A DNA stretch of 64,000 nt, taken from NCBI GenBank assembly GCA_963514005.1, contig OY740786.1, positions 87,606,001 through 87,670,000 on the forward strand, in the 5' to 3' direction. This stretch comes from Raja brachyura (taxonomy: Eukaryota). The notes beneath the pieces are model-generated. The model saw only the letters and a program-made list of their open reading frames with translations, was not told the origin of the DNA and searched no databases. The position numbers and the translations under genes are program-made. Below, one piece after another: positions 4,170 through 33,650 of this stretch. Position 1 is the first letter of the stretch; every line of letters begins with the position of its first letter.

Positions 4170-4317
4170 GTATGACTTTTTCCTAATCAGTCAGTGTGCA
4201 CGTCAAGGTACAGTTTCCCCCACGTACTACAATGTCGTTTACGACAACAGTCGCATGAAGCCAGATCACACACAACGGTTGACGTACAAGTTGTGTCACC
4301 TTTATTACAATTGGCCT
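4170..4317 (+). CDS. piwil4: PIWIL4-like penultimate exon
   Basis: 148-bp exon ending before gtaagt: [49 protein letters not shown]. Confidence 0.92.
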
Positions 4318-5755
4318 GTAAGTCAAAATTTTCATCACAATGATTTTTAGTTTAGAGCTGGTTTTGTCACCTCTTCAACATCAATAAAATAATTCAATAA
4401 TTGTTTTTTGTTAAACTTACCATTGTCTCGCTTTTCAGAGGTGGAATCAGTTGGCCGGTGTAAATTAATCGGCTGTGTGATGCACTCTTCGTGAAAAGAA
4501 GCTAATCAAAAGAGAACTTGATGCTAGAGTTGAACTTAAAATAGAAAGCAGTATTTGAATTTGAATTTCTAAACATTTTACTATCTTCAACTGCTCATTT
4601 AACTAAATTTGAATTTAGGGAATAATGCTTTATGTGTTGTGCCAGTTTAATATAATTTAGACTTTGAGCAGATTCACTTGCTTCCTCAGAAGAAATTTAT
4701 TTTTTATAAATATAGTGAAAAATTCAAGTTATATTAAAATATTGTTGTCAGTTTTAATCTAGATGCTCCATTTGATCATTGTTGAATATACATCCATAAT
4801 TCATTAATATTACAACATTTGGTAGCCATGTCCCATTTTTCCTTGATAAATAATTTGATAGTTTATAAATTCATACATTTAGAAGCTGTTTCTAACAATT
4901 CTTTATATGGAATTTTCGGCAATCATAAACATTTGTGGATTGAAAATATTATCTTTCTCTCCTTCCAAAAATGACTCAACTAAAAATAGTAAAAGTGAGA
5001 AATGCATGTTAAATAATGATTAATCCTGCACTATTAATTACAAAGTTTACAAAGTCCTGGCTGAGCCGCTGACATCTTCCATGAGGTGCACCAGCGAGCC
5101 CTTCTTCACCAGTAGCTGCACCATCCTGTTGATGCGGCAGTTGTTGCGGCTCACATTGTAGTCCCTGACCCACAGTGCTTTCTTCTTCGACATCTAGTTT
5201 TCAAGTGATCCTGACTTGCGTACGATCTGACTTACGCAAGGGTTTACTAAATGTAATCTTTACGCAAGTCGGGGAGCCTCTGCATTTTCTTCTGTAAAAT
5301 GCCACGGTGAGAAAGGATTTCTGTGGATTTAGTCTTATTTCTATCAATGTGTAATAAACACTTTTTAGTTAATAACAGAAATCATCTATGACATTGAAAA
5401 CTAAAACAGATGGGATTTTATTTTTATAGCACAAAAAATGGCATCCCATTTAATTTCATGAAAAGTAGGATCTTGTGACGTGCATGTGCTGCAACTTATC
5501 TTTCTTCAATATTGAATAGAATGTCCCTTCTGTGCCTTATTAGAAAACTCCATCTGCCAGTTGTACAGTTGCTACCATCTTGTGACCCTTATAATGAAAC
5601 TATCTTGAACAGTGTATGATTACCATGAAGTCATCAAGTGCTCAACTCGCTTCTCACTAAAATTCATGTAATTGACTTAATTTATGTTCTCAGTAGGTAA
5701 TTTTGGAAATACAATGATATTCAGGAATACCTATATTTGTATTGCCTTGTTGCAG

Positions 5756-7049: not shown

Positions 7050-10000
7050 CTTTTAAAAAAAAAATTTAAAAAATTATGTTTTTATTAGAAGCAGTGCACA
7101 AAAGTATAAACCGCAGCATATGACATAGTACATTTATTGTTCAGCTTCCATTTTAATTTTAGCAAAGATTAAATAGAAAAAGAGAGAAGAAAGAAAGTGG
7201 AAGAGAAAGTGAATCTGCAAGAATAGAACCCCTAAACTACCAAATGAGTCTAGTCAAAGAGTGATTAAGTAAAAACTTAAAGAAATAAAAAGACAAAAAC
7301 GGAAAAAAGAAAAAGAAAAAAAAAAACGAAAATGTTGACATACCTGCTTCATTTCTCTCCCCACCCATCACCCAGTCTGTAAATCATTTTAATTCCAAAA
7401 TTGTGTTGCACCATACTATCCTTGTAATGAATCAATGGGGTGCGGCTTTTTTCTGTCGTATTCCCCGTCTTCATCTTTGTCTGCACCGAGGCCTAATGGC
7501 GGAGCTGGCGGCCTTGGGCTGTGGCACCGTTCCAGCGCCATCGGAAGCGGCGACCCGACTCGGCCCTGGAGCTGTGGCAGCATTCCAGCTGCAGCGGTGA
7601 CCTGACTCGGCCCTCGAGCTGTGGCGGCAGCAGCGGCGGCAGTGGGAGCGGCGGCAGTGGCAGCAGCGACCCGACTCGGCCTCGGAGCTGTAGCGGCGGC
7701 AGCGGCGACCCGACTAGGCCCAGGAGCTGTAGCGACAGCAGCGGCAGTGGCGACCCGACTAGGCCCAGGAACTGTGCCGGCGGCAGCGGCGGCAGTGGCA
7801 GCAGCAACCCGACCCGGCCTCGGAGCTGTGGCGGCAGCAGCGGCCCGACCGCGACCTCGGCTGCGGGCCCGGTGGACTCAGCCGCAGGTCCAGTGGATGA
7901 CAACGTCAGGAGCTCGCAGGTCACAGGTTGGTGACCTGTTTTTCTGGAGCTCCCGCAACAACAGCTTCGTCCACCAGTCTGGAGGGCGGCAGCTTCCCCA
8001 GCTTCGAGCACCCCGGGCCGCGGAGTTTGAACCGGCCTGTTCGCGGAGCACGGTTGAGCTGCGGGACTTACTTACCATCACCCGGTGGGGTCACAACATC
8101 TGAAGCCTGGATCACCTCGGCGCAGAGGGAAACAAAGAGGGAAGAGACAGAGACTTTAAGACTTTGCCTTCCATCACAGTGAGGAGGTGTTTGATGAACT
8201 CACTGTGGTGGATGTTAAATTTGTGTTTATTGTGTGTTACTGTCATTTCAATTCGAAAGGAATCCATATCTTTGGAAATTGCTCTGATTTTCCTGCTAAG
8301 CCGAGTCTCATATCTTCAAGATGTAGCATCTACTATGCAAGAGTAGTATTTTTCCAAAATTTAAGTATGTTTTTTTGCCATTATCAGGCCATAATTGAGG
8401 AAATGTCTTCGAAATATTGATAGTTCTGGGCAGGCTTCTTCTGTTCCGAAAATAATCAGTTCCGTGTGGGGGGTCCAGTTTTTTTTTTCAATGTTTTTGA
8501 GAAAATTTCAAAGATTCCTTTCCAAAAGTTATGTAGTTTTATGCAAGAGGCAAAGGAGTGTGTTATAGTTGCTTCTTGGAGGAGACATTTGTCACAAATA
8601 GGGGATACATTTGAAAAACTCAGTTTAGTCTTTGAGTAGTATAGTCTGTGCAGTATTTTGTATTGGATTAAAATGTGTCTAACATTAATCGAACAATTAT
8701 GTATATATAAAAGATATTTTTGCCATCTGTCTTTGGAAATCTTTAGGACTAGTTCCTCTTCCCAGTCTCTTCTAATTGTGACTGATGATGGAATTTCTAT
8801 ATTTAGAAGGATATTATACAAGTGTGATGTTAGATTGTTTGACTCTGAGTCTCTATTCATACCTTCGTCTAATTTATCTGGCAGCAGAGTTTGATAATCA
8901 TGGGTATATGTTGATTTTACTTGTCCCTAAATTCGCAAAGTGCTGTGAATAATCGGATTTTTATCAAACATTGTGTTCTTCAACTTTATTGGGGAGAGAA
9001 GAATCGCACCTATATTAAAAGGCGATCCTCTTTCTCCATTGATAACCAGTCGACCTGTTGGCATGCATTATCTAGCCAGTAAATTACATTTTTAGTATTC
9101 GTTGCCCAGTAGTAGTGTAAGAAATTGGGGAGCGCCAATCCGCCCATTTCTTTGGGTTTACATAGATGTCGTTTATGAATTCTACGTGATTTATAGTTTC
9201 AGATGTAATCCGGGAATGAAGATTAAAAAAAAAAAAATTGCTAGGTATATTGATTGAAATAAATAGAGAATTTGTGGGAGGAAGATCATTTTTATGGCAT
9301 TTATTCTGCCTATTAGAGACATCGTAAGTGTTTTCCAGAATCGAATAAGAGCGTTTAATTTAGTAACTAAAGGCGGGAAGTTTGCATTGAATAAAGAAGT
9401 ATATTTTCTGGTTACTTGGACATCCAAATATTTACATTTTTCTGTGGCGATTCCGAAAGGAAATTTTAAAAGGTGTGTCGGCTCTTGAGGTTTTATTGCC
9501 ATAATTTCACTTTTGTTCCAGTTTAATCTGTATCCTGAGAAGGAACCGGATTCCTCTATAAGATTTACTATATTTGGAATACTAACTTGAGAATTGGTGA
9601 TATATAATAATACATCATGTGCATATAATGATATTTTATTATTGGAGTGTTTAGTATTATAGCCGTAAATGTTCGGATGTACTCTTATACTTTCCACTAA
9701 GGGTTCAATCGCAAGGGCAAATAACAGGGGTGATAATGCACAAGCCTGTCTATTGCCCCTGGATAGTTGAAATTTCGGAGAAAGTATGTGGTTGGTCAGT
9801 ATCCTGGCATTTGCCTATCATATAGTAATTTTATCCATGAAATAAAATTCTCTCCCATCTGAAATGTTTGCAATACTGTGAAAAGGTATTTCAATTCTAC
9901 TTGGTCAAATGCTTTTCTGCATCTAATGAAATAATTATTAAGTCTTCTTCTTTAATTCTGTGTGAGTGCATTATGTTAAAAAGGCGTCTCAAATTATTAA

Positions 10001-10930
10001 ATGAATGTCTCTTGGGTATGAACCCCGTTTGATCCGAATGTATTAATTTATTGACGTAGTTACTTAATCTTCTTACCAAAGTTGTCGCTAATATTTTCTG
10101 ATCTGTATTTAGAAAGGCAATTGCTCTGTATGAACTGGGGTCTTCTAGATCTTTATCTTTTTTGGGTATGTGTGAAAGTTTTCAGCTAGTGTTTGTGGTA
10201 ATGTCTGTTCTTTAAATGCATATGTATAAAGCTTGTGTAAACGTGGTGAAATTACCTCATGAAATCTTTAATAACATTCGTTACTAAACCCGTTTGGTCC
10301 AGATGTTTTACCGTTCTTCAGTGAATTAATTGTCTCTTCTATTTCTTTGATTGAAATCTGTACTAATTCCTCTTGTTCCAGCGGATTAAGTGTTGGAAGA
10401 TTACAGTTGTCCAGAAAGTTTATAATTTTTCTGCATTCTGTTGATGTTTTGGATGTGTATACATTTTGATAAAATTGGGCAAATCTTTCGTTAATGTCTT
10501 TGGGAAGCATTAACAATTCACCTTTACCTGATTTGATTTTTAGAATAGTCTGGTCCTTTTCAACTTTTCTCAGCTGACGTGCCAAAAGTTTGTGTGGCTT
10601 GTTGCCAAATTCAAAATTTTCCTGTTTTGTAATTTGAAATAATCTAATAACTCTTGCAGATAAAATTTGGTTTAGTTTAAATTTCAATATTGATATCTTG
10701 TTGTGTTTATCTCTAGTTGGATCTTTCGCGTTTTCTAAATCAAGTTGTCTAATCTGTTCTTCTAGTTGCAATTGTTCCGTCCTATTCTTTTTATTTTGAT
10801 AGGCTTGGTATGAAATGATAGAACCTCTAATAAACGCCTTAAAAGATACCCATAATAGGGAGGTCGAGATGTCTGGGGTATCATTGGTCTAAAACAAAAG
10901 TTCCATCTGTTGTTTTAAATTTTCTACAGA
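7050..10930 (-). mobile_element. 5'-truncated, decayed L1-clade LINE (ORF2 RT and C-terminus)
   Basis: Minus ORFs 10268-10771, 9897-10079 (LIHSDQTGF, SLDAEK), 9191-9697 (SLYAHDVL) and 8456-8860 (CxxC...H...C); A-rich 3' end near 7050. Confidence 0.9.
7440..8240 (+). mobile_element. GC-rich non-coding insertion with internal tandem repeats and a 3' stem-loop, inside the L1 3' end
   Basis: Repeated cgacccgact[c/a]ggcc..ggagctgt..ggcagc units; ccatcacagtgag...ctcactgtggtgg tail shared with ~14740, ~30165 and ~39690. Confidence 0.65.
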
Positions 10931-11130
10931 TTGTGAGTGGGGTCTTTTTGGATACATGAGCACTCTGAGTACACTGTCCAATGCTGTCTTATGTTGTAGG
11001 AAATATAAAAAATTGATATAGTTGTATATACTTATATATAGTTATCCTCTAAGAATATGTGAAAATAATTTGAATATAACATTGATAGTGCAGTGTTTCT
11101 TTGCAGGTGTTTGGGTACATCCTAGTGTCA

Positions 11131-14795: not shown

Positions 14796-15482
14796 GGCCT
14801 TCCAGTGTCTCTATGCTGGAGTAAGCCTTGCGCCAGCTAGCTCCGTGGAAAAATGAAAAAAAAGGGAGAAAAAACGGGACCGCTGAAAACTTACCAGCAG
14901 CTTGTGTCGAAGGGTGCGTGACGTTATCAGACCGCGACGGCGGTTGTTTAATGTTGACCCAAAGAACTCCCCGAAAGTACAGGCAAGGAAAACCCGGGTT
15001 AAACAAGAAGTAGGCTCGAGCAAAGCCTCAACCTCAATTTCAGCGTCGTCCCAAGAAGAAATTTCTAAACAGGGTCAGAAGGTAAGACCTAAAAAAACGG
15101 AATGGACGAGTTATTTCAGAAGAAATATCTGTCATAAGGGAAGAACTGAACATTTTTAAAGAAGAAACATCAGATTCATTTCAGACTGTCCATACTAATA
15201 TCCTCGAAGAATTGTCTCCCTGGAAGGACGAAGTAAGTGGAAAAATAAACCGACATATGGAAGAGGTAAATGCTAAATTTAATAAATTGGAATCCAAGCT
15301 TAACTCTAAGTTGGATCCAGTTATTATTATAGTAAATCAGCATACTACAGCTATAACTGAATTAGAGTCAATTGCTCAGACAGGTGCTGACACTATGAAA
15401 AGGGTCTTAACTGAGACCAAGCATTTATCAGAATTATTGAATAACATTTCTGAAAAATGTATCGATTTGGAGGGATGCTCGA

Positions 15483-15643
15483 TGTAGTGTATTTGGGTGC
15501 TTGGAACTGACTTGAAAGAACACTCAGATACAGGAGTAAACTAACAAGCTTCTTTATTCCAGGACGCCACCTTGAGTCTCCCCCAGCGCATGCGTCCCCT
15601 CACACAAGACATAACATATGCTAATTATATCACATACATCACA
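15483..15643 (-). repeat. 3' LTR
   Basis: Direct repeat of 26120-26280; AATAAA on the minus strand; preceded on minus by PPT aaagggggagcag. Confidence 0.95.
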
Positions 15644-15657
15644 CTGCTCCCCCTTTA
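15644..15657 (-). promoter_or_regulatory. polypurine tract
   Basis: Minus strand taaagggggagcag directly abuts the 3' LTR. Confidence 0.85.
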
Positions 15658-15884
15658 ACTTGGAGGCCGGTAACACCATTTACATTATATACATGACACT
15701 GCTACCCCTTTAACTTGGAGGCGAATAACACCATTTCTATTACATTAAATATAATTGATTAACACACTGTTGCAAAATTATATTATTACAGTCATCTTAC
15801 ATTGCATCCTCACAACTGTAATAATCATATCTAAACTTAGCACATAATTTTTTCATTCCACTAAACGACATATATTACCCCTTG

Positions 15885-16400
15885 CTTTATGTGTTATCCT
15901 TTTCCGTTCCCTTCTGTGTAAAGTGTGCGCTCTTTCTAATCACTCTAGCCCTACCTGTAACTCTGCCTCTTCCCTTTTTAAATGTCCTAATCTAATTTGC
16001 AGATTTCTTCCTGTTCCTGATATTCAGCTAAAGTTAACATTTCCTCTGTTTCTGTTCCTTATTTGTAGGTGGGATCTGACACATGACTGCAGGTTTTCGT
16101 TTTCTAGCAGCTTCTTCTGTCGCTCAATTTCCTGGCGCTGCGTGTTTATCTGCTCTTGCTGTACAATAACATTCTGCAATGCATAACCATTTGTCCATTG
16201 CTCAGTGAAGGAGGCTCCATGCTGGACTATAGTGAAGTGTCCTAATCGCAATCGGTCCTGCATACTTTTGTCTTGACCGACAAGCCTCTCTTCTTTAGAC
16301 TTTTCTATTAACAGCTTTTTGCTCATCGTCACACATTTATTTAACCATTCTTTGTATCGTTTAAGCCTTTTCTGTTGTTCATCTATTTGTCTTAAATCAC
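15885..16400 (-). pseudogene. tlk2: captured intronless TLK2-like coiled-coil region (no kinase domain), frameshifted
   Basis: [61 protein letters not shown]; after frameshifts [22 protein letters not shown] and RLGHLKREEAE. Confidence 0.9.
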
Positions 16401-16409
16401 CTTTCTGGT

Positions 16410-17470
16410 TCTTCATCAAGAAGTAGGATCTGTATTGTCTTTACAATACAACAGTGGCTTTGATTTGTGCTCTGTATAGTTTTCTTACTACATAAGCACG
16501 GTAGTGAGACTGCACTACAACTGCTGTATAAATCAGTTTGAGGAAGTCTTTCGTATATCGTTTAAGCCTTTTGTATCATTTCAGCCTTTTCTGTTGTGCA
16601 TTTATTTTTCTTCTTAAGACGTTCCTATACCAACTCATACGGAGTACTGACTGCACTTTTACAGAGGCCCTCCTTTGCTTAACCCACTGCCTAACCACCA
16701 TACCCTTGTAGGCAGCTTGAATGGTAATAGTTGCATACCTCATTGACTGATATTGCACAAACTGGGAATGCCCTATTTTGCATGCTTTGTACCATCTCTG
16801 TATCGAAATGACTGCGTGTCGCATAGCTCTGTAGCGTACCCTTGGTATGCACGGTATGCAGCTTGCAGAGTGACTAGAGCCGCCTTTTGCATCAAGAAAT
16901 GTTTTCTTGTAATGCACACCATTATGACTGACTTAATATGGCGTGCTGCCTTGATTTTCTCAACCAATTCTCTGGCTTTAAACCTGCAGTAGAAGGGCTG
17001 AATACAAACCACTGCTTTTCTCAAACTATTATAATGTCTCACTTGGACATCTCTTATCTGGCAAGCTCTGTATCGTTGCTGTACCGCAATGGCAGACCAA
17101 CGTAGTTTCTTGAAATACTGATGCTGTTTATGCATCTGATAATAAATCTGTATAACCTTGGCAGATTTGTGCATGCCCCGCAATTGCTTTCGAACAAGGA
17201 TTCCTCGGTAGGCAGCCTGAAGCAGTACAACGCTGCTGTGTACCTTCATGTAAGTCTTGCGATCACTTTCCATTTGAAGGTGTGCCCTATAATGGGTTTG
17301 TACTATTATAGCTGCCAATCTCATTGCCCTGTATGGACGGTATACTCTGTGCCTTCTAAATACTGTTTGTATTACCGTTGCTGCCTTCTGTTTGTTCCGG
17401 ATCTCTCTCCGTATCTTCATACCCCTGAATGCAGCTTGAATAGTTAGGGTTGCCCTCTGGTTGGCAATGT
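16410..17470 (-). pseudogene. aspm: captured ASPM-like IQ-repeat region
   Basis: More than 12 tandem IQ motifs (IQAAFRG, LQAAYRG, VQQRYRA, IQRWYKA, IQAAYKG) at ~23/27-aa spacing, as in the large ASPM IQ exon; ORFs 16773-17777 and 16576-16917. Confidence 0.85.
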
Positions 17471-17689
17471 CCCTTTGCATTTGACTTTTGTTCCTTTGCC
17501 TTTGACCGTTGACTTGACCTTGACCTTTGTCACTTTGCCCTTGACCTTTGTCACTTTGCCTATTACCTTTGGCCTTTTTCACTTGACCTTCGTCACTTTG
17601 CCCTTGACTTTTGTCACTTTGCCCTTGACTTTTGTCCTTTGAGGGACTCCCTGCCCTCTTTAGTTCAGGCTCCTTGCCTCTGGATGCCC

Positions 17690-20600
17690 TTGGAGGTTTT
17701 GGCGAGAAATGAGCCATTAATGCCTGCTTACACTCCTCGTACATTTTGTCTGTGGGCTTTGCTGGCTGCAGTAACATACGTAAGGTCTGATAAACCTCTC
17801 TTCCTTTTTTAAATTAAAAAAAAAAAATCTTTATTTATTAGAGGTACCATAAGTTACATCAGTGTACATCCCATGTATATTATTGCAATCATTGTACCCC
17901 TTAATTTTTTAAGGCTTTAGAAAAAAAGAAAGAAGAAAGAAATATCAACAGAGAAAGTAGAGAAAGTGAAAAAGAATTGTGAAAGTGAAAAAGCGTGCCA
18001 GAGGGAAAGGGAACCCTTGGGCGAAGAGTTAGAGAAAGGAGATTAAGAGATAGATCCTGGAGAGGAGAAAAAAAAGGGAAAGAGAGAGAAGGAAAAAAGA
18101 AAAGCCAGTTACTTTATTATAAACATCGCGCAAAAGGAATCTACCAACTCAACAGTTTTTCTTCCCCCTTTACCTGACACCGGTACTTTTTTGAGGTATT
18201 CTTGCTCCTTATCCTTGTAGTAGATTTATAAATGCAGACCACATCTTATAGAAACAGTCTGATTTTCCTGCCAGTCTCATATCTTCCAAATGTAGTGTTT
18301 CAAACATAGTTGAAATCCACATATTAACTGTTGGTATAGGAGTATTTTTCCAGAATTTTAAGATTAGCTTTTTTCCTGTTATTAAGCTGTATTCAAATAG
18401 ATTATTTTGAAACACATTTAATTCAGGGCTATCGTCCGTTGTTCCAAAGATAATCCAGTCTGCTTTTGGAGTCAGTTTTATTTTAAATACTTTTGTGAAA
18501 ATTTCAAAAATGTCAGTCCAAAATTTTTGAATTTTTGCCCAAAATGAGTGCGCTATATTAGTTTCTTGACATTGACATTTATCACAAATAGGTGAGACAT
18601 TGGGAAAAAGTTTATTTTAGTTTTTGAATAGTATAATCTGTGTAAGATTTTAAATTGTATTAAAGTGTGTCTTACGTTAATTGAATATTTATGCACATTT
18701 AATAAATATTCTTCCCACCTTTTTTGGAAATTTTTATACTTAATTCTTTTTCCCAGTCTCTTCTGATACCTTCTGTTGTTGGTATTTCTGCGTTTAGAAT
18801 AATATATATATGATATTAGGTTTGTTGATTCAGCCTTTGTATTCATTACTTCTTCCAGTAAGTCTGGAGGCATAGTGTGATAATCTTGTGCGTATTTTTC
18901 CAGATAGTCACAAATTTGGAAATATTTAAAATACTGATTGTTTCCCAAATTGTATTTTAGTTGTAATTGTTTAAATGATAATAGTTTTCCCGTTTCATAC
19001 AAATCCCCGAAGGTTTTAATTCTGGCTCTTTCCATTGTATAAATGCTTTATCTATAATTGAAGGTTTAAACAAAGGGTTTTTACCAATAGGCGATAAGAG
19101 AGAAACATTTCTTAATTTTAAGTTGTGTTTTATTTGTTTCCAAATTCTAATTGTACTGTGTATAATTGGATTTTTGTTGTAATTTGTATTATTCATCGTC
19201 ATTGGTGAAAGAAGGATCGCTCCAATATTGCAAGGAGAGCAGTCCTCTTTCTCCATAATAATCCAATCCGGTTGCTGGGGAGAGTTATCCAGCAATTGGA
19301 TCATATTTCTAATATTTACAGACCAGTAGTAATACATGAAATTGAGGAGTGCTAATCCCCCTACTACTTAGGGTTTATTCAGATGAGCTCTTTGTATTCT
19401 GTGAGATTTATAATCCCAAATAAAATTTGTGATATCTAAGTCCAGTTTTTTAAAAAACGTTTTGGGTAGGTATATTGGAATTGATTGGAACAGATATATA
19501 ATTTGTGGTAGAAAAATCATTTTTATGGTGTTTATTTGGCCTATTAAGGCCATCGGAAGCGTTTTCCAAAATTTAATAAAGTTATATAGTTTCTTAAGTA
19601 GAGGGTTACAATTTGCGTCAAACATGCCTTGATATCTTCTAGTGATTTCGATACCCAAGTATTTAATTTTTTCCAAAGCTATTTTAAAAGGAAACTGTAA
19701 AAGATGTGTAGAATCTTTCAGTTTTATTGACATGATTTCACGTTTATTCCAATTTAGTCTATATCCTGAACATGATCCAAAGTCCTCTATTAAGTTTAAA
19801 ATATTTGGTATAGTAATATGAGGTTTTGTGATGTACAATAGTACATCATCTTGTATAATGATATTTTATTGTTGGAATATTTTGTTTTATATCCATGGAT
19901 ATTCGGATGAGTTCTAATTATTTCTGCCAGGGGTTCAATTATGAGAGCAAATAACAGCGGTGATAGTGAACATCCTTGTCTATTACCCCTTGACAATTGA
20001 AATTTCGTAGATAAATTATTGTTAGTTAATATTCTGCCCGTTGGCTTATTATATAATAATTTAATCCATAGAATGAAATTCTCTCCCAGTTGAAATTTTT
20101 GCAATACCTTGACCATATAATCCCATTCAACCTGATCGAATGCTTTCTCTGCATCCAACGATATAATTGATAGTTTTTGATCTTCAGTTTGGTGTGAATG
20201 CATTATATTGAGCAGACGTCTCAAATTATTAAATGATTGTCTCTTAGGGATAAACCTCGTTTGATCCGGATGTATTAATTTACTGGCATATTTACTTAGA
20301 ATTCCAGCTAGTATTTTCGCTAATATTTTTTGATCTGTGTTTAACAACGCAATAGCTCTATATGATCCGGGTTCTTCCACATCTTTATCTTTCTTAAGTA
20401 GTAATGTGATCGTGGATTCTGCTAGTGTTTCAGGTAGTATTTGTTCTTTGAAGGCATAAGTATACATTTTCTGTAGGCGAGGTGTAAATATGTCATAAAA
20501 ACTTTTTATATATGACTTTTATAAAATTCATTACTCAATCCGTCGGGACCTGGTGTTTTTTCATTTTTTAATGAGATTATTGTTTCTTCTATTTCCTTAT

Positions 20601-23600
20601 TTAAGATTTGTGTTCCCAATTCCTCTTGTTCCTGCAACTCTAGTTTAGGAAGGTTACAATTATCCAAGAACTCTGTAACTTTGTTGGTGTCCGTTGTCGT
20701 TTTAGATGTAAATTTAGATTGTAAATTCTTGTAAAATTATGCAAATCTTTTATTAATATCACTCGGCAAGGTCAATACTTCCCCTTTGTCTGATTTGATC
20801 TTTGAAATTGTGTGATCCTTTTCTCGTTTTTTTAACTGACGTGCTAGAGGTTTATGGGGCTTATCCCCAAATTCCAAATGTTCCTGTCCTATAATTTATA
20901 ATAATCTAATGACTTTCTCTGATAATAATTTATTTAATTTAAATTTCAGTATTATTATTCTATTATGTTTATCCGTAGTGGGGTCTTTAGCGTTTTCTAT
21001 GTCCAGTTGTCTAATTTGTTCTTCTAACAGTCTTTGTTCGTTCTTATTTTTCTTATTTTGAAAAGCTTGGTATGAAATTATAACGCCTCGAATAAATGCT
21101 TTAAAAGATTCCCATAATAGTGTAGGTGATATGTCAGGCGTATCGTTTATTTCGAAAAAAAGATCCATTTGCTGTTCTTAGTCATTCCTTCCATTTTTAG
21201 AAAAAAAGTTAGTGGGGAGTGATCTGAAATCGCATTTGAGTGGTATTTTGGTTTAGAAGTATGGGGTACTAATTTTGTATCCACCAGGAAATAATCTATA
21301 CGTGAATATGTCTTGTGTACCATTGAATAGAATGAGTAATCCCTGCCGGTCAGATTTGCAATCCTCCAGACATCTGTTATATTTGTGTTTTTTATATATG
21401 TGTTTAGAAGTTTGCTAGTTTTGGATTTCGTAATACCCCTCTGTTTTTGATTGGATTCATCTAAGTAAGGGTTTAAAACACAATTAAAGCCGATTATGAC
21501 ATTCTGGTAATTATATTCTGCAATTATATTCAAGATTTTATTGAAAAAATGCGGATTGTCAAAGTTGGGCGCATATATATTTACCAAGGTAATTGGGGTA
21601 GCATGGATCTCCCCGGTAACTATCAAATATCTCCCGTCATTATCTGTTAAGGTAGTTTTGGGTTTAAATGGAATGCCTTTGCGAACAATAATAGACGTTC
21701 CTCTAGATTTCGACGTGTATGACGAGTGAAAAGTTTGCCCTATCCAGTTCGCCCTCAATCTAGCTTGATCTTGAAGATTAAGGCATTTCTTGTAAGAAAG
21801 CAATATCTGTGTTTCAGCTGAGCTAGAGCTCATCTTTCAGCTGAGCTAGAATCTTACCCCTTTTAATGCGTTCGTTAACACCCCTAACGTTACAACTACA
21901 AAATGAGATTCGTCACTGTTTATTTTGGTTATTGTCTTGCATTTTGAATAGATTTAATACCTATGTATCTTGCGGCGCATCCGTACCTCAGGTCTTAAAT
22001 ATTGGGGGATCATTTACCCTACAAAGTTCAAATTAGTAGATTCCCTTTGCGATTGTCCTTAAATAGAAAAAACACACATGTGAATAAATGTGATAATAAT
22101 TTTTTAAAAACTAATACAAGTGAAAATACAGTGTTCGAACTTGTCGGCACTGTAACAAGTGACCCACCTGTTGGTGGGAGAAAATATTTTATCGACTTCC
22201 GTTGTCGATATAAAACAAACAAATAGCTCCTCTAGACGTTCCTCTAGATTTCGACGTGTATGACGAGTGAAAAGTTACTCATTACTCTATTACTCATAAC
22301 ATACTGGAGCGGGACCGGTTTACAGTATATATATCCATTTCATCAATATTCCCGGATATAACTAACATTTTTATCTACTATATGTGAAGCGTATATTTTA
22401 ACCTCGGAAATCATCAACTGTTGGTTGAAGGGGTTAACCTGTTACTGGCTCCTGGAACTGAGCCAGGAGCCCGCCTCTGCCCCTCATGCCCCAGTTATAA
22501 ATCTACTTGAGATTTATTAAGTTAAATTATAAATATTAATTTGTAAATCACCCTTTCTACATTTCTGATTAACATTCATACTATTTCTATGTTAGTATTC
22601 TATGTTAATATTGTTACAAATGTTAATTCTATACCATTTAGGTTATCATTAAATCTCATATACAACAGTAATTGCTAAGCCCACAGTCTGTTGTTGAGCT
22701 CTTCATTTCGGTGGTTATCTTTTTTTCCGGTTCCCTTGGGACAGAGTTAGCATTCCACCAATAAGACGTCTAGACAAAGTTCCTTCTTCTGGCAGCACGC
22801 CACCATTCAGGGTGAAATGGTAAAAAGAGAGAGTATCCATACTGTCCGACCTTTCCAGCTAGTCCTTGTGTTCCACGATGGTTAGAGCATATTTGTATGC
22901 CTCCTCGGGATTTGTGAACGATTTTTGCTGTTCCTTGGAGATACGCATTTTAGCTGGGTAGTAAACAGCACATCAAACCTCCTTATTTCCTTGGAGAGCC
23001 TGCTTTGCCTTAGAGAACTGATTTCGCTTTTGCATAATTTCATAGGGATAGTCCCTGAAAATTTTAAAAGTTGTTGCACCATACTTCAGAGGCACTCCAT
23101 ATTTGATATTACTCATAACCTCTTCCACATCAGAAATGTCCCGGAATTTCACAATAATCTGTCATGTATGTTCTGAACCAGTATGAGATTTGGATTTAAA
23201 TCTAGGAACTCGGTGTGCCACTTCAATTTTCGGTAGGTTAGGGAGCTTAATAGCTTCTTTAATTAAGCCCGCAGCGAACTCGCGAATGTTATCTCTCTCA
23301 GCTCCCTCTGGTATGCCAACTAATCTTAGATGTTGGCGTCTCGAAACGAGCTTCCAGATCCAGGCTTTTTTTTTGTCTGAAACTTTAGGCAGCTGAGTCG
23401 CCATCCGTCGTGGAGCAAGGTCTTGTTCTGACCTCACATTCTTCATCTCCTCCACCATTCTTGCCATCTCTTCCTCCATCTCGTGCATTGATGACATACA
23501 GGTTGAGACAGTGTCCAGCACATCACCGAGCTTCTTCGTGGTGTCTTCTTCACCCTTATCAATTCTCTCCGATAGTTCATCTCTCACATCGTCAATTCAT

Positions 23601-24293
23601 TTATTTATAGTGCGAATCGAATCCTTCACAGACTCAATAATTTTCTGTTTACCAGCAGTCATATTCAGCGTCAGCTTTTCTATCTTTTCCATCATCACTC
23701 CCATCATCTGTTCCATCTTTTTTCCATCCACCTTTACATCTATCAGTTCACTTACCGAAAGCTTTAATTCTTCAAATTCTTTGTCCTTGGCCAAATCTGT
23801 CTTAGATCTTGTAGCCATGTCGGAAATCACCTTTTCTTCAGAAGCCACTTCAAAAATAAGTTCTTCAGGCTTCGTCTGGCTTCCCCAGGAGTGTTTTGTA
23901 ACTGTTCTCTGAGTGCTCTTACCAGGAGAAGAATTTTTCATTTAAAGTGTTTTAAGCCTCCGTTAAAATCACAGCGCTTACTGATGACGTCATCAGTGCG
24001 ACGTCCAGAGGCTCCGGTAAGTTTTTTAAATTGGTCCCGACCAGTAGACCCGATTTTAACGCGAAGAATCGTGAATTTTATGGAGCGGTGCTATGTGCAG
24101 CATCTGTTATTGTAACATGGCTCCACCGGAAGTCATAACCCTCTCTTCCTAAGCCTAATATGAACCATGCTCTCTTCTTTTCCTCTGCAGCGATATCATT
24201 GGAAATGAAACAAGCCTCCAGGACTTCGGTCCATTTCTCAAAATTACACCCAGAATCTAACTGGGGCACGTTTCCTACAATTTGAAAAGCCAT
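17690..24293 (-). pseudogene. Mag-clade-like gag N-terminus split by the L1 (24293-24140 joined to 17794-17690)
   Basis: Rejoined: MAFQIVGNVPQLDSGCNFEKWTEVLEACFISNDIAAEEKKRAWFILGLGREVYQTLRMLLQPAKPTDKMYEECKQALMAHFSPKP, matching the recalled W..Y.ERL..F..N.I...KK...L...Y..L..L..P.KP....Y..L...L..HF.PK pattern. Confidence 0.8.
17806..24139 (-). mobile_element. full-length (~6.3 kb) but frameshifted L1-clade LINE nested in the gag
   Basis: 11-bp TSD cctctcttcct (17795-17805, 24140-24150); 5' end gacttccggt; ORF1 (SRRQHLRLVGIPEG, IEVAHR); inter-ORF region; APE (21147-21833), RT (19796-20467, RQGCSLSP) and C-terminal fragments; A-rich tail. Confidence 0.93.
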
Positions 24294-26099
24294 GCTACCT
24301 GTTGCTATTCAGGTGCACTATATTCTGTTCTCTCACGGCGTTTCCTGCACTGGACGTAATCCTTTTACACACTAAGAAGTGATCCAGTCCACTGACTATT
24401 ACCAATTCATATAATAATAGATTTATACTATTAACCAACATTTAATGTCAATAGCCATTAAGAACATTTTAAACCATATTCCTTCTATGCACACAGATTT
24501 ACTATTAACAGTGACCAATGCATTACATTCAAACAGTCCTGCTTTTACTGTGGTCATGCATTACATTCACAGAGGGCTTTTATTATGAAGTATTTCACAG
24601 CTCCAGCTTGTGGCCTGTGGCCTGGTGCATCCTCGACCTCTCGAGCTATCCCCACTGGTACCTTTGCTGATGGCCTCATTGGACCTCCACTTTTGCTGCT
24701 TTTGTTGGTTCCCGCGGGCTTCACCGTTACTTTTGCTGCCGCTGGCTCGCTGCCAAGTCGACTCCTGCTGCTCTGCTGACTTGCCTGCTGTCTCCCTTGG
24801 ACGCCCTGCGGAAGGTAAGTCGCTGCTGCTGGTCCCACTGCTCAGCTCATCGCTGGCTCACCGTCACGCCTGGCTGCTCAGCTCATCAGGTCTGTGCCCC
24901 GCTGTCGGTGGCTGGGTAAGCATTGTGTCCCACTTCTCTCACACAGACCCTCTTCTCTCTCTCTGGCGGCTTTCTCTCGCGACTGGGCTGAAGTGCTTGA
25001 GTGCTGTATGCTGCTTCTCTTGTGTGGACCCAGTCTTCGCTCGGGGCCGGATTTCCTCTCATGTCCGGGCTTTCCCCGCTCTCGGCCGTCTCTTGCGACC
25101 GTGCGCTGTGTCCCGCTTATCTCGTGAGGCCTGGTCCACTTCTCTCTCGCGGTCAGCTTTCCCACTCGGTCGGTCCACTTCTCCTGCATGGACGGACCCT
25201 CTTTTCTGCTCACGGTCGGGCTGACTCTGCTCCCGACCTGGCTTCCTCTGCTCGCGGTCGTCTCCTGCGACCGGGCTTTCTCTCATGACCGGGCTGTCTC
25301 TGCTCCCGGCCTGGTTGACTCCATTTTTGTCGGTGGCTTCTCCGGACCTGTCCGTGGCCCTCACTCGACGTTGGTGGCGGCACCTGGGCCTGGCTGTGGG
25401 CTTCACAGCCCTGGAAAATGTTCAAAGTCGGTGGCGGTCTCCTGGGCCTCTTCTGCCCCTTTGCCATGGCTGCACGGCCCTGGAAAGCGTTCCAGGTAAG
25501 TTGACACCATCGCTGTCCTGCTGGTTAGGCTTCCAGCTTTCGGCTGTGTTCTTCGGTGACACTTACTTACTGCCCCACTTGTTTTCCTTGCTTCCTGTTC
25601 CGATCTTTCTTTTCTTTGGCGCCAATTCAAAACCATTTGGCGCCAAATCTTTTTGCTTAGTGCCGTTCCACTTTGTTTCCAAACACAACCTCTTTTTAAC
25701 TTTTTTTTCTCTTGACAGCCTATTTTCTTTGTTCTTTTCTGTTCTTTTATCCTCGTTGCATCGTTGTCCTTGTTGTGTGTTTTGGTGTAACAATTCACCT
25801 AAAACATAGCTGTACAAAGATTATTCAGCTTGAGGAATTCGACAAAAAAAACTCAGTCTAAAATGTGTAACAATCCGAAGGACGACGTCTTGCCACATAG
25901 ACACAACATAGAGATAGCCTGACAAACTCGCCGAATTGTACAGCTGATGTTTTAAACTACAGTCCCATGCTTAGAGGGATCTGCAGGCCTCTCATGTCCA
26001 TCTCGCAAACAACTGCGACACAACTCCGTATCTACTGTTTGAACTGTTAAACAATCCTGCGTGTTGCAAAACAGTCCTGCGGGTGAGTTCACAAACTCC

Positions 26100-26117
26100 A
26101 TCCCATCCTCGTCGCCA
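26100..26117 (-). promoter_or_regulatory. primer-binding site, tRNA-Ser(GCT)
   Basis: Minus strand TGGCGACGAGGATGGGAT, 2 nt after the 5' LTR; complementary to the recalled vertebrate tRNA-Ser(GCT) 3' end ATCCCATCCTCGTCG-CCA. Confidence 0.85.
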
Positions 26118-26119
26118 AT

Positions 26120-26280
26120 TGTAGTGTATTTGGGTGCTTGGAACTGACTTAAAAGAACACTCAGATACAGGAGTAAACTAACAAGCTTCTTTATTCTAGG
26201 ACGCCACCTTGAGTCTCCCCCAGCGCATGCGTCCCCTCGCACAAGAAATAACATATGCTAATTATATCATATACATCACA
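26120..26280 (-). repeat. 5' LTR
   Basis: Direct repeat of 15483-15643, followed on minus by the PBS. Confidence 0.95.
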
Positions 26281-29200
26281 CTCGAAACGTCAGAACCTGA
26301 GAATTGTGGGAATCAAAGAGGGCAGAGGGAAATAAAAACCCTCATGAATTTGCTGGCGATCTTCTACAAAAGGTTTTAAATTTAGATACAAAGACTCTAC
26401 TGGATCGTGCACATAGGGCATTGAGATCACGTCAGAACAATGCCCCCCCCCCCCCCCCCCCCCCCCCCGAGACATTTGATATTGAAGGTGCATTATGACC
26501 ACGATTTGGAAAACATCTTGACGAAAATTGCGGCAACAGTAACCTATCATTTGAAGGGTAACAATATTCGTATTTTCAGAGACTATCCCGCAGAGGTTGT
26601 CAAGAGAAGAGCGCTTTTCAACGAGACAAGAGGAATTCTCAAGAAGATTTCAAACCTATGATTTGGACTGTTGTATCTGCAAAACTCCTACATGCATAAG
26701 GAACACTTCTTTACCGATCATAAGAAAGCATTTGAGTTCGCCCAGGACATTGAGAAATCAGCGGAATGATGAACAACATCTCCACAGGGTCATCACTTGG
26801 CGGAGAACAAATGGAACTGTAAGTTGTTATACTTAAATGATAGTTGAGCAGTTATCTTGCTATTAATTTACAACTACTATTATTATTTAGTAGTAAATAT
26901 TAATAATTATTACTAACTATTATTAATTTATACTAGTAAGATAAGAGTTAGTTACAAATAAGAAATGTAATTAATACCTAATGCAGGGATTTCATTTTAT
27001 TCTAATTTTTAATTTTTTTTTTGAATAATTAACTAATATTGGACTAATATTTTTTAACTAATATTTCTGACTAATAAAAAATTCCCCGTCACTGAATTAA
27101 AAATCCATCAGACCTAATTCTCTCTTCTTTTCCCCCTCCCTTTTACAAATTGTTATTACTGAGATTTCTTTGTCTTTTAAAACACGGAACTAGTACTATT
27201 TTTTAAAAACAAGGCTACAGAAGCCCTTAGAATTTTAGCCACGCTAGTGTGGCTATCACTAACTACACTTACTGTAGTTGTAGTTTTTCTATCTTTTTTG
27301 CACCCTACTAACTTTTTATCTTCCTATCTTAGCTTTAATTATATAAATATTAAATTTAATTATAAGATTTTTTTAATGAGATATGTTTGAGATGAAGATT
27401 TATCAAATTTAAAATTCACCAATCCTGTGTTCGGGTGGAATACCAGATTCAAGGTGTTGAACCATTTGCTTCTTTACAGGCCACCCTATCTATATGATGC
27501 AAGATGTTAAAATGAAAATTGGGGGTGAAGGAATTACATTTTGTTGTTGGAATGTCAAGGGTATTAATGAACCAATCAAGAGAGGTAAAGTATTAGCACA
27601 TTTAAAATCACTCAAAGCTGATATAATATTCCTTCAAGAAATTCATCTTAAAAATGAAGCACAACATAGACTGAAAGCAAAATGTATTGTTAAAACATAT
27701 CATTCCTCATTCTCCCATAAGTCTACAGGGGTTGCAATTTTAATCCGTAAGGGTATACCTTTTAAACATGTGTCAACTATTGCGGATATTGATGGTAGAT
27801 ATATTATATTGGTGGGTGAATTATATTCAGAAAAAGTAATCTTCCTTAATGTTTATGGTCCAGATTTTGATAACCCACTGTTTTTTAATAAAACACTTAA
27901 TACTATTCTGGGACTTACACAATACAAGTTGATAATTGGTGGTGACTTAAATTGCACATTAGACCCTTATTTAGATAGATCATCAAGGCAAAGGAAAATA
28001 AAATCCAAGTCAAGTGAATTATTAAATTCATATATTAATACTACCAATATCAAAGATGTCTGGAGAATAGAAAACCCTACTGGATGAGAATATTCATTTT
28101 ACTCACCAGTACATAAAGCCTATTCAAGAATCGACTATTTTTTAGTGGACTCCAAACTTATCCCATATACATACAATTCAAAATATGAAAATATTATAAT
28201 TTTGGTTCATGCACCTTTAACATTCATGGTTAAATTAAAAGGTATAGATGAGAAGCAGGTACACTGGAGACTTAATCAAATTCTAAATGATAAAGCGTGC
28301 TGTGAATACCTCACAACACAGATTAATATGTTCATTCAGATGAAGGATCTCCCAGAAACCCCTGTCTCCCTTCTGTGGGAAACATTTAAAGCATTTGTAC
28401 GAGGAGCGCTTATCTCCTCCCAAGCCTTTCACAATAAAAAGAGCCGAGCTAAACAGCATGAACTAGAAATGGAAATAAGGCAACTAGATATTGAAAACGC
28501 GATAGCACGCTCTATGATAAAACACAACAAAATTGCTGCACTTAAATATGTTAAATCACATATATTCAGACCAAATTATAATACTTTATCAACATACTAA
28601 ACAATTTCAATTTGAATTTGGTGATAAACCACAAAAGTTGCTAGCTCCTCAACTTCGCAAGTTAGATCAGGAAAAAACAATTCATAAAATCAAATCACAT
28701 ATGGGAGAAACACTATCATTGCCCAAGGACATCAATGACAGATTTTTGAAATATTCTCAGACACTCTACTCATCCAAAAAAGCAGACTGTTCTATGAGAA
28801 TGGAAATTCTTAAAGAAATTTAATCTTTCAGGATTAGATCTGAGAGAGAGCGAATTATTAGGTGCTGAAATTTCAATGAAAGAAATTGAAGAGACCATTA
28901 GATCCTTGAAAAATGGAAAGGCTGCGGGCCCTGATGGTCTAAATTCTAAATTTTATAAACAATTTAATGATTTGATCTCCCCATGCCTACAGACATTATA
29001 TAATTATGCTTTCACACAGCAGGTACTGCCAGAAACTTTAAATGAATCAACAATAACACTTATACCAAAAATTGATAAAGATCTTGACCCTGGCTCAAAT
29101 AGAGCAATAGCTCTTTTAAATACCGATCAGAATATATTAACAAAACTCTTAGCCCACAGATTAAGTTTAATAATTCACAAATTAATACATCCTGATCAAA

Positions 29201-29451
29201 CAGGTTTTATCCCAAAATGCTATTCATTTTATAATTTGAGACGTATATTGTTTAATATAATATACTCAAATAGAGTAGCTAATGTAGATTTAGCAGTCAT
29301 CTTGTTAGATGCTGAAAAAGCATTTGATCAGGTAGAATGGCCCCATCTCTTTTCTGTGATGGAAACATTTCAATTGGGTGAGACATGGGTTAAACTCCTA
29401 TATACTAATCCATCAGGTAGAATATTGACAAATCAAATGTTATCACCCAAA

Positions 29452-30030
29452 TGCAGTGATGCCTGCTGCCACCAACATGAGGACCCGCTAAAACTGGATT
29501 TCCTGTCCATGCATCGTTGCACTCATTTGTGCCCATACAGCAGAGTTCACGGTGGACACTTTGAGCGATGCACAATTAACAGGTGTTTTATATCTCGTGG
29601 CCGTCTCTTCCATAATCGTATCCTGGAGCTGGTGAGAAGCCATGTAATTAACATTGGCGGCCAGGTTTTATTCCATGGCCTCACCAGTCCCTTCCGGAAT
29701 AGTGAAGTTTCTCGCTACATCCGGGACACCTAGAGCATGACTCATGTGCTCTGGTGTGTGCACCAATGCAGTGACACCAGCTTCAGGGTCAGCCTCCTCC
29801 TGCCCTGGCTCTCCCGAGTCATGCTCCAGGGAGGTCTCTTCCAGCCCTAAACAAGGTGCTGGAGAGGGTGATTCACACTGGTATCCATAAGCGGTGTATT
29901 CTTCTTCGCTGTATGGACCTCTGCGAGAGGCTGTGTGGGGAATCCTAGGGGCATTCGACCCCAATTTAAATTTTACATGGCTCATTAAGTTTGGAGCATT
30001 TTTCCATTTGTTTGAGCCATCCCCATACCT
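29452..30030 (-). mobile_element. DIRS-like (tyrosine-recombinase retroelement) gag/ORF1 fragment
   Basis: Reading through the stop of ORF 29668-29985 gives YKTPVNCASLKVSTVNSAVWAQMS...IQF*RVLMLVAAGITAF, resembling the recalled DIRS gag motif Y..P.NC..L.V..VN..IW. Confidence 0.55.
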
Positions 30031-31413: not shown

Positions 31414-32439
31414 AGCAGTGAATGCATTTTGTTGTACACCACATTACTCTCACACTGCCAACAACTTTTTTTTTAATTATGTTTTTGTACTGACATCTTG
31501 TCCATGTTTCATAAAGTGCCCACAATGTCAACTTAACTTCTTTGAAGTTGTGACTTGTTAAGTTCTGCATCCCACGTGAGAAAACCGACCGACCTTTGGT
31601 TCATCATTTCATCCAAATAAAGGCACATATTTTAACATGGCAGCACCCCCTCAATTCTACATCCAAATGTCAGCCTAGAAAATTGTGCTCAAGTCATTGG
31701 AATGGGTCTTGAAGTCAAAAGTGCTTTGAAATGTGAAGATATGTTGCAAATGGTTTTAGTTTAATGATATTGTGAAGTAATGTCAGAGTAACAAATTGGA
31801 ATCATACAGATTTTAGATTGTTTTTAGCCACCAAAGTGTAAGCTATGGAGTGTAAAGGAAAGCCAAAGGGTTGGTCCTCAGTGAGAATGATGAAGAGACG
31901 ACCAAGGACACCGTTTATAGGAATACTGTGGCGTCAGCCACTTAAGCTCGAACCCTCGTCAGGAGAGGGCGGGCACACGACGTCATGGGCAGAGGGAGTG
32001 TCCTGGTACATAAGCTCTCTCACCACGAGATCCACCAGGAGTTTCTACCGGTAGCTGAGCCCGAGGGCACAACCTCGCTCAGCTACAACAACTCTACATA
32101 TAGTTAGCGCACCCACTATATGTGTGACAACAGAATAAAGAACCAGTTGCACCAACCTGATGTCTCCTCTTTATTCGCCACGTATGGTGCTGCTACATTG
32201 GTGACCCCCGACTGTCCAAATTTAAATTTGGGCTCACCTGAAGAAGCAGCCTCGGGAGACCTGATGTCTGCAGCCGGCTGCCCAGCCCTGCAGAACTACG
32301 CTGCCGTCAACCAGGCCCTGCAGTGAGGTATGTCGCCGCCTACCCACCAGCTGCTGCAGGAGCTGCGAGCATTGCAGTCTCCTGCCCACGGCAGCCCCGA
32401 CCCACGTCTCCAGGCCCCAGCACCGGTCCAGGCCTCACT

Positions 32440-32710
32440 GGGTCTCCAGGCCCAGCACGGCTCCAGGCCTCACCGCGGCTCCAGCCCCTGCACCGGACCC
32501 GGCTCCAGGCCTCACCGCGTCCCCAGGCCCTGCACCGGACCCGGCTCCAGGCCTCACCGCGTCCCCAGGCCCAGCACCGGACCCGGCTCCAGGCCTCACC
32601 GCGTCCCCAGGCCCTGCACCGGACCCGGCTCCAGGCCTCACCACGTCTCCAGGCCCAGCACCGGACCCGGCTCCAGGCCTCACCATGTCTCCAGGCCCTG
32701 CACCACGCCT
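32440..32710 (+). repeat. 42-bp tandem repeat, ~6 copies
   Basis: Unit ggctccaggcctcaccgcgtccccaggccctgcaccggaccc. Confidence 0.9.
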
Positions 32711-33294: not shown

Positions 33295-33650
33295 CAGTCT
33301 CGTCGCACCCCTCGGTACATCGGGATCTCACACGCAGAGCGTCAACTGCGCCCGTGTAGAGCACCGTCCCGACCCACGCCCGGGGTGTCCCAGACCTCTT
33401 CTGTCCGGCGGCTTCTACATCCGTCTCCTCGCACCACTCGGTACATCGGGATCACCCACGCAGAGCGTCAACTGCGCCCGTGGAGCCCTCCGTCCCGACC
33501 CACGCCCGGGGTGTCCCAGACCTCTTCTGTCCGGCGGCTTCTGCATCGGTCTCCTCGCACCCCTCGGTACATCGGGATCGCCCACGCAGAGCGTCAACTG
33601 CGCCCGTGGAGCCCTCCGTCCCGACCCACGTCCGGGGTGTCCCAGACCTA
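33295..33650 (+). repeat. 126-bp tandem repeat, ~2.8 copies
   Basis: cggtacatcgggatc recurs at 33313, 33439 and 33565. Confidence 0.9.

What the first reader, a model, noticed from the sequence alone, without database searches (positions are those of the whole stretch)
15885..16400. TLK2-like cargo is intronless and stops just short of the kinase domain
Seen: ~515 bp of continuous similarity from [10 protein letters not shown] to roughly RKRI, with no introns. Established: this part of vertebrate TLK genes spans several exons and holds the dimerisation coiled coils. Inference: capture was from spliced mRNA, and an intact ancestor would encode a kinase-less dimerisation module that could act as a dominant negative. 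This copy has frameshifts and a stop.
Basis: partly seen in the sequence, partly recalled or inferred. Interest (0 to 1): 0.7.

Follow-up and report, generated by a model that had tools for sequence, protein, structure and literature searches.

The report
Skate retrotransposon carrying two host mRNAs
A retrotransposon in a skate genome picked up spliced pieces of two cell-division genes (ASPM and TLK2) and spread to many copies, and it seems to have kept one long readable frame while letting the captured protein sequence drift, which suggests the cargo served as translatable filler rather than as a blocker of TLK2.

Summary
Window 16400-15896 (minus strand) is 90.9% identical to host tlk2 mRNA, crosses four exactly spliced exon junctions and ends 17 residues before the kinase domain. 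It lies in a 4.5-kb non-autonomous Gypsy LTR element in which spliced ASPM and TLK2 pieces replace most of gag and all of pol. The 3' end matches a short look-alike at the parent's pol stop, so template switching explains it. One basal copy keeps a longer capture with seven TLK2 junctions and one ASPM junction. The dominant-negative idea is weak: 67 of 68 sampled copies lack the front of the first coiled coil, the window's frameshifts are inherited (52, 49 and 23 of 68 copies), and inherited amino-acid changes are near neutral (omega about 0.7, p=0.15). Unexpectedly, inherited indels are in frame or cancel out in every main subfamily, and inherited non-CpG stops are absent (0 of 58 against 63 of 949 private, p=0.045). 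Best reading (0.6): selection kept a Gag-led frame open for use in cis, as in mouse IAP 1Δ1. The closest known case is maize Bs1.

The parts
26120..26280 (-). 5' LTR, 161 bp, TG...CA
   Evidence: 96.9% identical to the 3' LTR; target-site duplication CTCGA at 26281-26285 and 15478-15482
26104..26119 (-). primer-binding site for tRNA-Ser(GCT)
   Evidence: the complementary sequence ends host tRNA-Ser(GCT) genes (21 matches; 3 of 3 loci scanned are tRNA-Ser(gct))
24294..26103 (-). non-coding leader, shared with the parent Gypsy family
   Evidence: 73-80% to parent loci
24135..24293 (-). gag start (MAFQIVGNVPQLD...), first half
   Evidence: 58-66% to parent Gag
17805..24134 (-). later L1/Tx1-type LINE inserted into gag; not part of the element
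   Evidence: 15-bp duplication at 17790-17804 and 24135-24149; endonuclease and RT Pfam hits
17641..17804 (-). rest of Gag N-terminus plus an in-frame jump from parent Gag residue about 92 to about 210 (capsid C-terminal part, zinc knuckles and pol absent)
17468..17641 (-). 21-nt tandem repeats (7 codons), in frame in this copy
16616..17490 (-). ASPM IQ-repeat cargo (host C10:10604427-10603549)
   Evidence: 87.8%; Pfam IQ
16395..16615 (-). remnant of a 222-nt duplication of the ASPM/TLK2 junction, then the last 163 nt of ASPM cargo
15890..16400 (-). TLK2 cargo: five exons (first and last partial), four spliced junctions, residues about 194-373
15662..15889 (-). 3' untranslated region of the parent element, starting at its pol stop
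   Evidence: L034 versus L142, 92% over 250 nt; junction
15644..15661 (-). polypurine tract
15483..15643 (-). 3' LTR

Best explanation
SHOWN: a Gypsy (Ty3) LTR retrotransposon switched templates onto spliced ASPM and TLK2 mRNAs during reverse transcription. The host pieces replaced most of gag and all of pol, giving a non-autonomous element. An in-frame internal deletion then produced the short form, which spread in successive subfamilies (A, then C, then B and D). INFERRED: the copies that kept replicating were those whose RNA carried one long open frame, running from the gag start through ASPM and TLK2 to near the 3' UTR. The frame was kept; the captured amino-acid sequence was not. The likely use is in cis: translation protects the RNA from nonsense-mediated decay, or the Gag-N-led product brings its own RNA into helper particles, as reported for mouse IAP 1Δ1. 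The cargo is then translatable filler. Ending before the kinase domain is a by-product of where the template switch could happen.
For: Structure. Parent family with the same LTR, leader, Gag N-terminus and 3' UTR, plus protease, RNase H and integrase. Microsimilarity at all three host-related switch points: ASPM/TLK2 long form ACAAG, short form TGTG, TLK2/pol end about 11 of 13 nt. Series and order. In-frame inherited events: gag deletion, gag-repeat-ASPM join, short ASPM/TLK2 join, +222 duplication and its reduction to +72, -15 and -27 in TLK2; only 59 of 189 private indels are multiples of three. Frameshifting indels cancel in each main subfamily: commonest net +3, -3, -24, -30. In subfamily B a host off-frame stop on the read path is absent in 15 of 17 copies, while four off-path stops are kept. 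Subfamily-inherited non-CpG substitutions: 0 stops of 58, against 63 of 949 private (p=0.045). Inherited frameshifting indels in gag+ASPM: 0 against 51 private; non-coding parts 27 against 311 (p=0.035). Amino-acid level: 38 N / 20 S against 42.1 N expected (p=0.15, omega about 0.7). IAP precedent: passages in PMC6466679 and PMC7411935.
Against: Each statistical test is modest (p 0.035-0.045), and the in-frame events were picked out after seeing them. A CpG-type stop 16 codons before the cargo end is inherited by B and D (16 of 17, 25 of 26), trimming about 35 of roughly 700 codons. Some copies with uncompensated frames inserted too (A2 grade, several A and B copies). The long form's junction is out of frame in its one surviving copy. 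One off-path stop was also lost in B and D, and two on-path stops were already gone in A, so they are not compensations. The repeat tract is in frame in only 23 of 41 copies. The TLK2 front part leans towards conservation (7 N / 7 S against 9.9 N expected, p=0.09). The sample is the best-scoring 68 copies, not a census. Translation and a cis effect were not tested.
Confidence: 0.6

Rival explanations
1. Neutral passenger: the cargo and its frame do nothing; only the LTRs, primer site, leader and polypurine tract matter, and the in-frame pattern is chance.
For: Near-neutral amino-acid change; inherited stop in B and D; copies with broken frames exist; all sampled copies are decayed.
Against: About seven in-frame inherited events at a background rate of 0.31 each (joint about 3e-4 if independent); cancelling indel sets in A, B and C; deficits of inherited stops and frameshifts.
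Confidence: 0.15
2. RNA-level anti-silencing: element-derived piRNAs or siRNAs matching tlk2 (and aspm) lower host TLK2, loosen heterochromatin and help the element, as TART does with nxf2.
For: TLK loss raises transcription of repetitive elements (PMC7408502, abstract). Captured fragments about 90% identical yield host-targeting piRNAs in Drosophila (PMC13534243, passages); this cargo is 88-94% identical.
Against: It does not predict an open frame. Poly(A) reads are mostly of the element's sense strand if the library is of the usual stranded type (53). No small-RNA data were seen.
Confidence: 0.12
3. One reading: the product is a kinase-less TLK2 coiled-coil module that binds and inhibits host TLK1/2. 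A variant is that the long form did so and later lineages shed it.
For: The long copy holds residues about 108-373 with all coiled-coil regions. The oldest short subfamily keeps the TLK2 frame almost throughout. Slight lean to conservation in the front TLK2 part (p=0.09).
Against: The long form is one copy (48, 50) with an out-of-frame junction. The short form starts at C194, inside a helix modelled at 166-238 (low-confidence model). In B, C and D about 45 codons are read in other frames, and B and D end inside the last coil. A 'coiled-coil domain' construct is listed among non-interacting mutants in PMC11879137 (passage).
Confidence: 0.1
4. Domesticated host gene: one copy now serves the skate.
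For: RefSeq lists a 290-aa Gag-repeat-IQ protein in Leucoraja erinacea (XP_055489032.1). Family transcripts are seen.
Against: That protein is a one-member cluster ending early in ASPM. No sampled copy has an unusually short branch except a twin pair (67). The window copy is split by a LINE.
Confidence: 0.03

Closest known systems
Maize Bs1 LTR retroelement (described in PMC5131818 and PMC13317346, passages; the primary papers were not held)
   Same: LTR element holding pieces of several unlinked host mRNAs in one chimeric frame; all copies share switch points; secondary retroposition.
   Different: Bs1 has one to five copies in a plant. This family has at least 68 distinct copies sampled and probably hundreds, in a vertebrate, with ordered subfamilies, a surviving long precursor and a surviving parent family.
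LTR-mediated retrocopies in animals (Tan et al. 2016, PMC5131818; abstract, introduction and passages)
   Same: Intron loss, flanking LTR-element sequence, microsimilarity at switch points, two-gene chimeras, sense orientation.
   Different: Those are young retrocopies. Here the chimera became a transposon family of its own, with signs of selection on the frame.
Mouse IAP 1Δ1 (passages in PMC6466679 and PMC7411935; Saito 2008 not held)
   Same: Non-autonomous, internally deleted element with a Gag-led fusion frame.
   Different: The 1Δ1 fusion is Gag-Pol and its cis effect was shown by experiment. Here the filler is host sequence and the cis effect is inferred.
Acutely transforming retroviruses such as E26, Gag-Myb-Ets (recalled, no call)
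   Same: Gag fused in frame to two spliced host genes; helper-dependent.
   Different: No env seen, Gypsy rather than retrovirus, germ-line spread, and no sign of selection on the host protein's function.
Drosophila TART and nxf2, piwi, aub captures (PMC13534243, passages)
   Same: Host chromatin-related gene piece at about 90% identity carried by a multi-copy element.
   Different: Those pieces are 140-235 bp and act through piRNAs. This cargo is about 1.6 kb and sits in the Gag frame.

Membership tests
Ty3/Gypsy LTR retrotransposon | Paired LTRs, TG...CA | tested here: met
Ty3/Gypsy LTR retrotransposon | Short target-site duplication | tested here: met
   5 bp; exact in 11 of 25 LTR pairs read by eye; window
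Ty3/Gypsy LTR retrotransposon | tRNA primer site and polypurine tract | tested here: met
Ty3/Gypsy LTR retrotransposon | Gag homology | tested here: met
   48% over 87 aa to P0215, which hits Retrotrans_gag and zf-CCHC; 58-66% to parent Gag
Ty3/Gypsy LTR retrotransposon | pol order protease-RT-RNase H-integrase in the parent family | tested here: inconclusive
   Protease, RNase H and integrase hit Pfam in separate decayed copies, with integrase after the RNase H end; the RT piece gave no Pfam hit
Autonomous Gypsy element | Own pol | tested here: not met
   Cargo runs from gag to the parent's pol stop; the element is non-autonomous
Mag clade of Gypsy (features recalled) | Placement on an RT tree | not tested
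   5-bp duplication, tRNA-Ser primer and two CCHC knuckles are only suggestive
LTR-mediated retrocopy | Exact intron loss | tested here: met
   Clean junctions in 67, 68, 55 and 63 of 68 copies; the rest have small nearby indels or lack coverage
LTR-mediated retrocopy | Microsimilarity at switch points | tested here: met
   the gag/ASPM switch was not resolved
L1-made processed pseudogene | 3' poly(A) tail and intact mRNA 3' end | tested here: not met
   Ends mid-exon and joins the Gypsy 3' UTR
Bs1-like chimeric gene | Transcribed across the chimera | tested here: inconclusive
   Reads in 30 of 30 bins but uneven, from an unnamed organism, summed over copies
Bs1-like chimeric gene | Translated | not testable with these tools
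   needs ribosome profiling or proteomics
IAP 1Δ1-like cis-acting fusion | Fusion frame needed in cis for transposition | not testable with these tools
   only the evolutionary signature was tested
Dominant-negative TLK fragment | Intact CC1 | tested here: not met
   Short form starts at C194; upstream exons found in 1 of 68 copies. Published CC1 limits lie in figures that were not seen.
Dominant-negative TLK fragment | Binds and inhibits TLK1/2 | not tested
   no binding test was run

The most novel reading that the evidence does not exclude
A vertebrate retrotransposon used captured host mRNAs as the body of a Gag-led fusion that it needed in cis, and the genome preserves the whole series. 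It first took the full TLK2 coiled-coil region, part of a kinase that keeps repeats silent. The lineages that spread then deleted or scrambled that module step by step while repeatedly re-closing the reading frame. This would be a natural record of selection for translation without selection for protein sequence, and possibly of the removal of a costly anti-TLK activity.
Probability: 0.3. Interest if true: 0.8.

Novelty: new variant of a known kind. Interest (0 to 1): 0.57.

Why it matters
Capture of mRNA by LTR elements is known, but the cases seen in the papers read are young retrocopies or have few copies (Bs1: one to five). This family gives precursor, parent and ordered subfamilies in one vertebrate genome. 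That makes it possible to ask whether captured genes help an element through their protein, their RNA, or merely by being translatable. The data point to the last, which parallels IAP 1Δ1 and cautions against reading function into captured domains. There is also a practical point: copies swamp TLK2 searches in this genome (the 64 scored hits to full-length TLK2 included no host exon), and one is annotated in RefSeq as an ASPM homolog.

Tried and rejected
Single-exon origin: rejected. tlk1 as donor: rejected. L1-made pseudogene: rejected. An intronless kinase-domain copy: none among 41 matches; the TLK-level ones are host exons. A looser tally (shared by 3 or more copies) gave 0 of 145 shared ASPM stops, and p about 1e-4 with the fixed class added. 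It was set aside for the stricter subfamily test, because recurrent hits inflate the shared class and sites differing in all copies include host-lineage changes. The binomial p for net indels (46 of 66 copies) is not used because copies are not independent. The raw N/S contrast (p=0.035) fell to p=0.15 after matching transitions and transversions. A search for long Gag-Pol relatives found nothing. Pfam gave no family for the TLK piece. No RNA holder was listed on record for the window stretch; runs X1, X5 and X11 are contigs of uncertain type and say nothing on expression. The single-sequence fold of TLK2 is poor (mean pLDDT 44) and is used only for rough helix limits. No complex prediction was run. 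Literature: TLK2+ASPM+retrotransposon gave 0 papers; skate/LTR/gene-capture searches gave no description of this family (listings only). Saito 2008 and Elrouby and Bureau 2010 were not held. Repbase and Dfam could not be searched, so the family may be catalogued there. Earlier findings of this scan: nothing.

Full report
Observation. The minus strand of 16392-15895 matches residues 199-374 of a ray TLK2, and the closest proteins are shark, skate and ray TLK2. Host exon translations carry residues seen in the skate protein P0004, so the genome is skate-like. Host tlk2 and tlk1 were located with the kinase domain. The cargo is 87-93% identical to tlk2 exons and 75-77% to tlk1. Against GT-AG-checked exons, window 16400-15896 covers mRNA nt 8-545 and crosses four junctions exactly, skipping 9.6 kb of intron. 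It ends at I373; the kinase begins at Y391. This copy has deletions of 3, 1, 28 and 1 nt and two stops.

The element. The cargo lies between 161-bp LTRs at 26120-26280 and 15483-15643 (96.9% alike), with a 5-bp target duplication, a tRNA-Ser(GCT) primer site and a polypurine tract. The order is leader, Gag N-terminus, 21-nt repeats, ASPM IQ repeats (87.8% to host aspm), TLK2, 3' UTR. A later LINE splits gag in this copy; uninterrupted copies are mostly 4.3-4.9 kb. Decayed members of the parent family share LTR, leader, Gag start and 3' UTR, and carry protease, RNase H and integrase. The cargo replaces most of gag and all of pol.

Copy number and age. First-look candidates numbered 325, 848, 2094 and 246 in four searches; only 40-64 were scored each time, so there is no census. 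From 86 fetched loci, chosen as best hits, 68 distinct copies were analysed. 64 of 68 start at mRNA nt 4-13 and 51 of 68 end at nt 546, so they descend from one capture. LTR pairs could be measured in 25 of 47 long loci: medians 10.5% (A, n=5), 4.3% (B, 7), 5.6% (C, 2) and 5.1% (D, 11), minimum 1.2%. Terminal branches are 5.1, 4.1, 3.6 and 3.4% for A, C, B and D. No young copy was seen. A Gag-repeat-IQ protein is annotated in Leucoraja erinacea as an ASPM homolog. Runs under six coded organism labels hold 5-41% of the window's words; one was laid as contigs covering 30 of 30 bins (X11).

History. One copy (C2:90.63 Mb) keeps a longer capture: TLK2 from residue about 108, over seven junctions, and ASPM spliced into its next exon. 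Both cargoes therefore came from mRNA. Searches with its extra parts found only it and the host exons (2 of 2 and 4 of 4 matches). It is sister to all other copies (support 0.80), followed by an A grade and then a C+B+D clade (0.997). Its ASPM/TLK2 switch lies at a shared 5-mer and is out of frame in this decayed copy; one copy cannot show the original state. The short form arose by an in-frame deletion at a shared TGTG. The 3' switch lies where TLK2 resembles the parent's pol end over about 13 nt. This accounts for 'just short of the kinase' without any need for selection, though it does not exclude it.

The dominant-negative idea. Dimerisation needs CC1 (PMC6023931, section 6 and passages; PMC11879137, passages). 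The residue limits of CC1 are in figures and supplements that were not seen. A weak model puts the first helix at 166-238 and a weak coiled-coil hit at 179-210. The short form starts at 194 and lacks the LC8-site equivalent at 155-162. The window's frameshifts are inherited: 52, 49 and 23 of 68 copies. Its second stop is shared by 16 of 17 B and 25 of 26 D copies, 0 of 7 C and 3 of 13 A; its first stop is nearly private (2 of 62). Subfamily-inherited non-CpG changes are 38 N and 20 S against 42.1 N expected (p=0.15). The front TLK2 part alone gives 7 and 7 (p=0.09). Strong protein-level constraint is not seen; weak constraint is not excluded.

What was kept. The inherited gag deletion, the gag-repeat-ASPM join, the short junction, the +222 duplication and its reduction to +72, and the -15 and -27 deletions are all in frame, against 59 of 189 private indels. 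Frameshifting indels cancel within each main subfamily: commonest net +3 (5 of 14 A), -3 (6 of 17 B), -24 (4 of 7 C), -30 (20 of 26 D). B lacks one host off-frame stop on its read path (15 of 17), C has deleted two, and four off-path stops persist. Inherited non-CpG stops are 0 of 58 against 63 of 949 private (p=0.045). With one reference copy and 20 others, inherited frameshifting indels are 0 against 51 private in gag+ASPM and 27 against 311 in non-coding parts (p=0.035); with two other references the apparent shared gag/ASPM frameshifts looked like lesions of the reference itself. No gag stop is shared among 21 copies. Against this stand the inherited late stop in B and D, copies with uncompensated frames, one off-path stop lost, two on-path stops already absent in A, and a repeat tract in frame in 23 of 41 measurable copies. 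Only 3 of 65 anchorable copies now read through the TLK2 piece without a stop.

Expression. In one poly(A) run from an unnamed organism, 787 of 7,335,232 reads lay on a D copy at 86% or better, in 30 of 30 bins. Most had the first mate on the strand that in usual stranded libraries marks element-sense RNA, and depth peaked over the 3' UTR and TLK2. 34 reads cross the TLK2/UTR border as a deletion variant, so they are element-derived. Host mRNA can add to cargo bins, ASPM depth is low, and a full-length transcript is not shown.

Mechanism and comparison. Capture by template switching is shown and matches Tan et al. 2016 and maize Bs1. The signal of an open frame with little sequence constraint is best explained by a need for translation in cis, as reported for IAP 1Δ1 (passages; primary paper not held). 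Whether through RNA stability or co-assembly is inference; the role of nonsense-mediated decay is recalled. Rivals are a neutral passenger (0.15), RNA-level anti-silencing of tlk2 (0.12), a dominant-negative protein (0.10) and domestication (0.03). No paper describing this family turned up; repeat databases were not searchable. Verdict: a real, new variant of a known kind; interest 0.57.

Noticed in passing
window 15086-15482 and 26281-29733: The LTR element itself sits inside ORF1 of an older plus-strand LINE: the frame resumes after the 5' LTR (SKRQNLRIVGIKEG). Three nested layers: LINE, LTR element, LINE.
   Followed up: partly
window 17468-17641: The 21-nt repeat tract between Gag and ASPM varies from about 42 to over 300 nt among copies and encodes a Q/K/D/G-rich heptad; its origin was not found in the parent Gag.
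   Followed up: partly
XP_055489032.1 (P0121): A copy of this element is annotated in RefSeq as an ASPM homolog 'isoform X1' in Leucoraja erinacea; its first 85 residues are Gypsy Gag.
   Followed up: partly
L020 and L024 (C25:19.30 Mb and C25:20.85 Mb): Two near-identical copies in opposite orientation sharing private lesions; probably a segmental duplication. L024 was left out of the tallies and of the net-indel count in 89.
   Followed up: partly
L063, G000:C10:10609226-10603230: The large host aspm exon holds four near-identical repeats at 657-nt spacing; the cargo matches the last one best.
   Followed up: no
L031, about 4200-4470: This copy's 3' end after the TLK2 piece is replaced by unrelated sequence, with an inverted LTR fragment nearby.
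   Followed up: no
window 44020-45327: A 16-bp unit repeated about 82 times at 96% match.
   Followed up: no
window 32402-33649: GC-rich tandem arrays with periods 42, 50/100 and 126 bp.
   Followed up: no
window 8300-11000, 40434-43968, 52789-55816, 61650-63949: Further LINE remnants with endonuclease- and RT-like frames; the 8.3-11 kb one is about 70% like the LINE inside the element.
   Followed up: no
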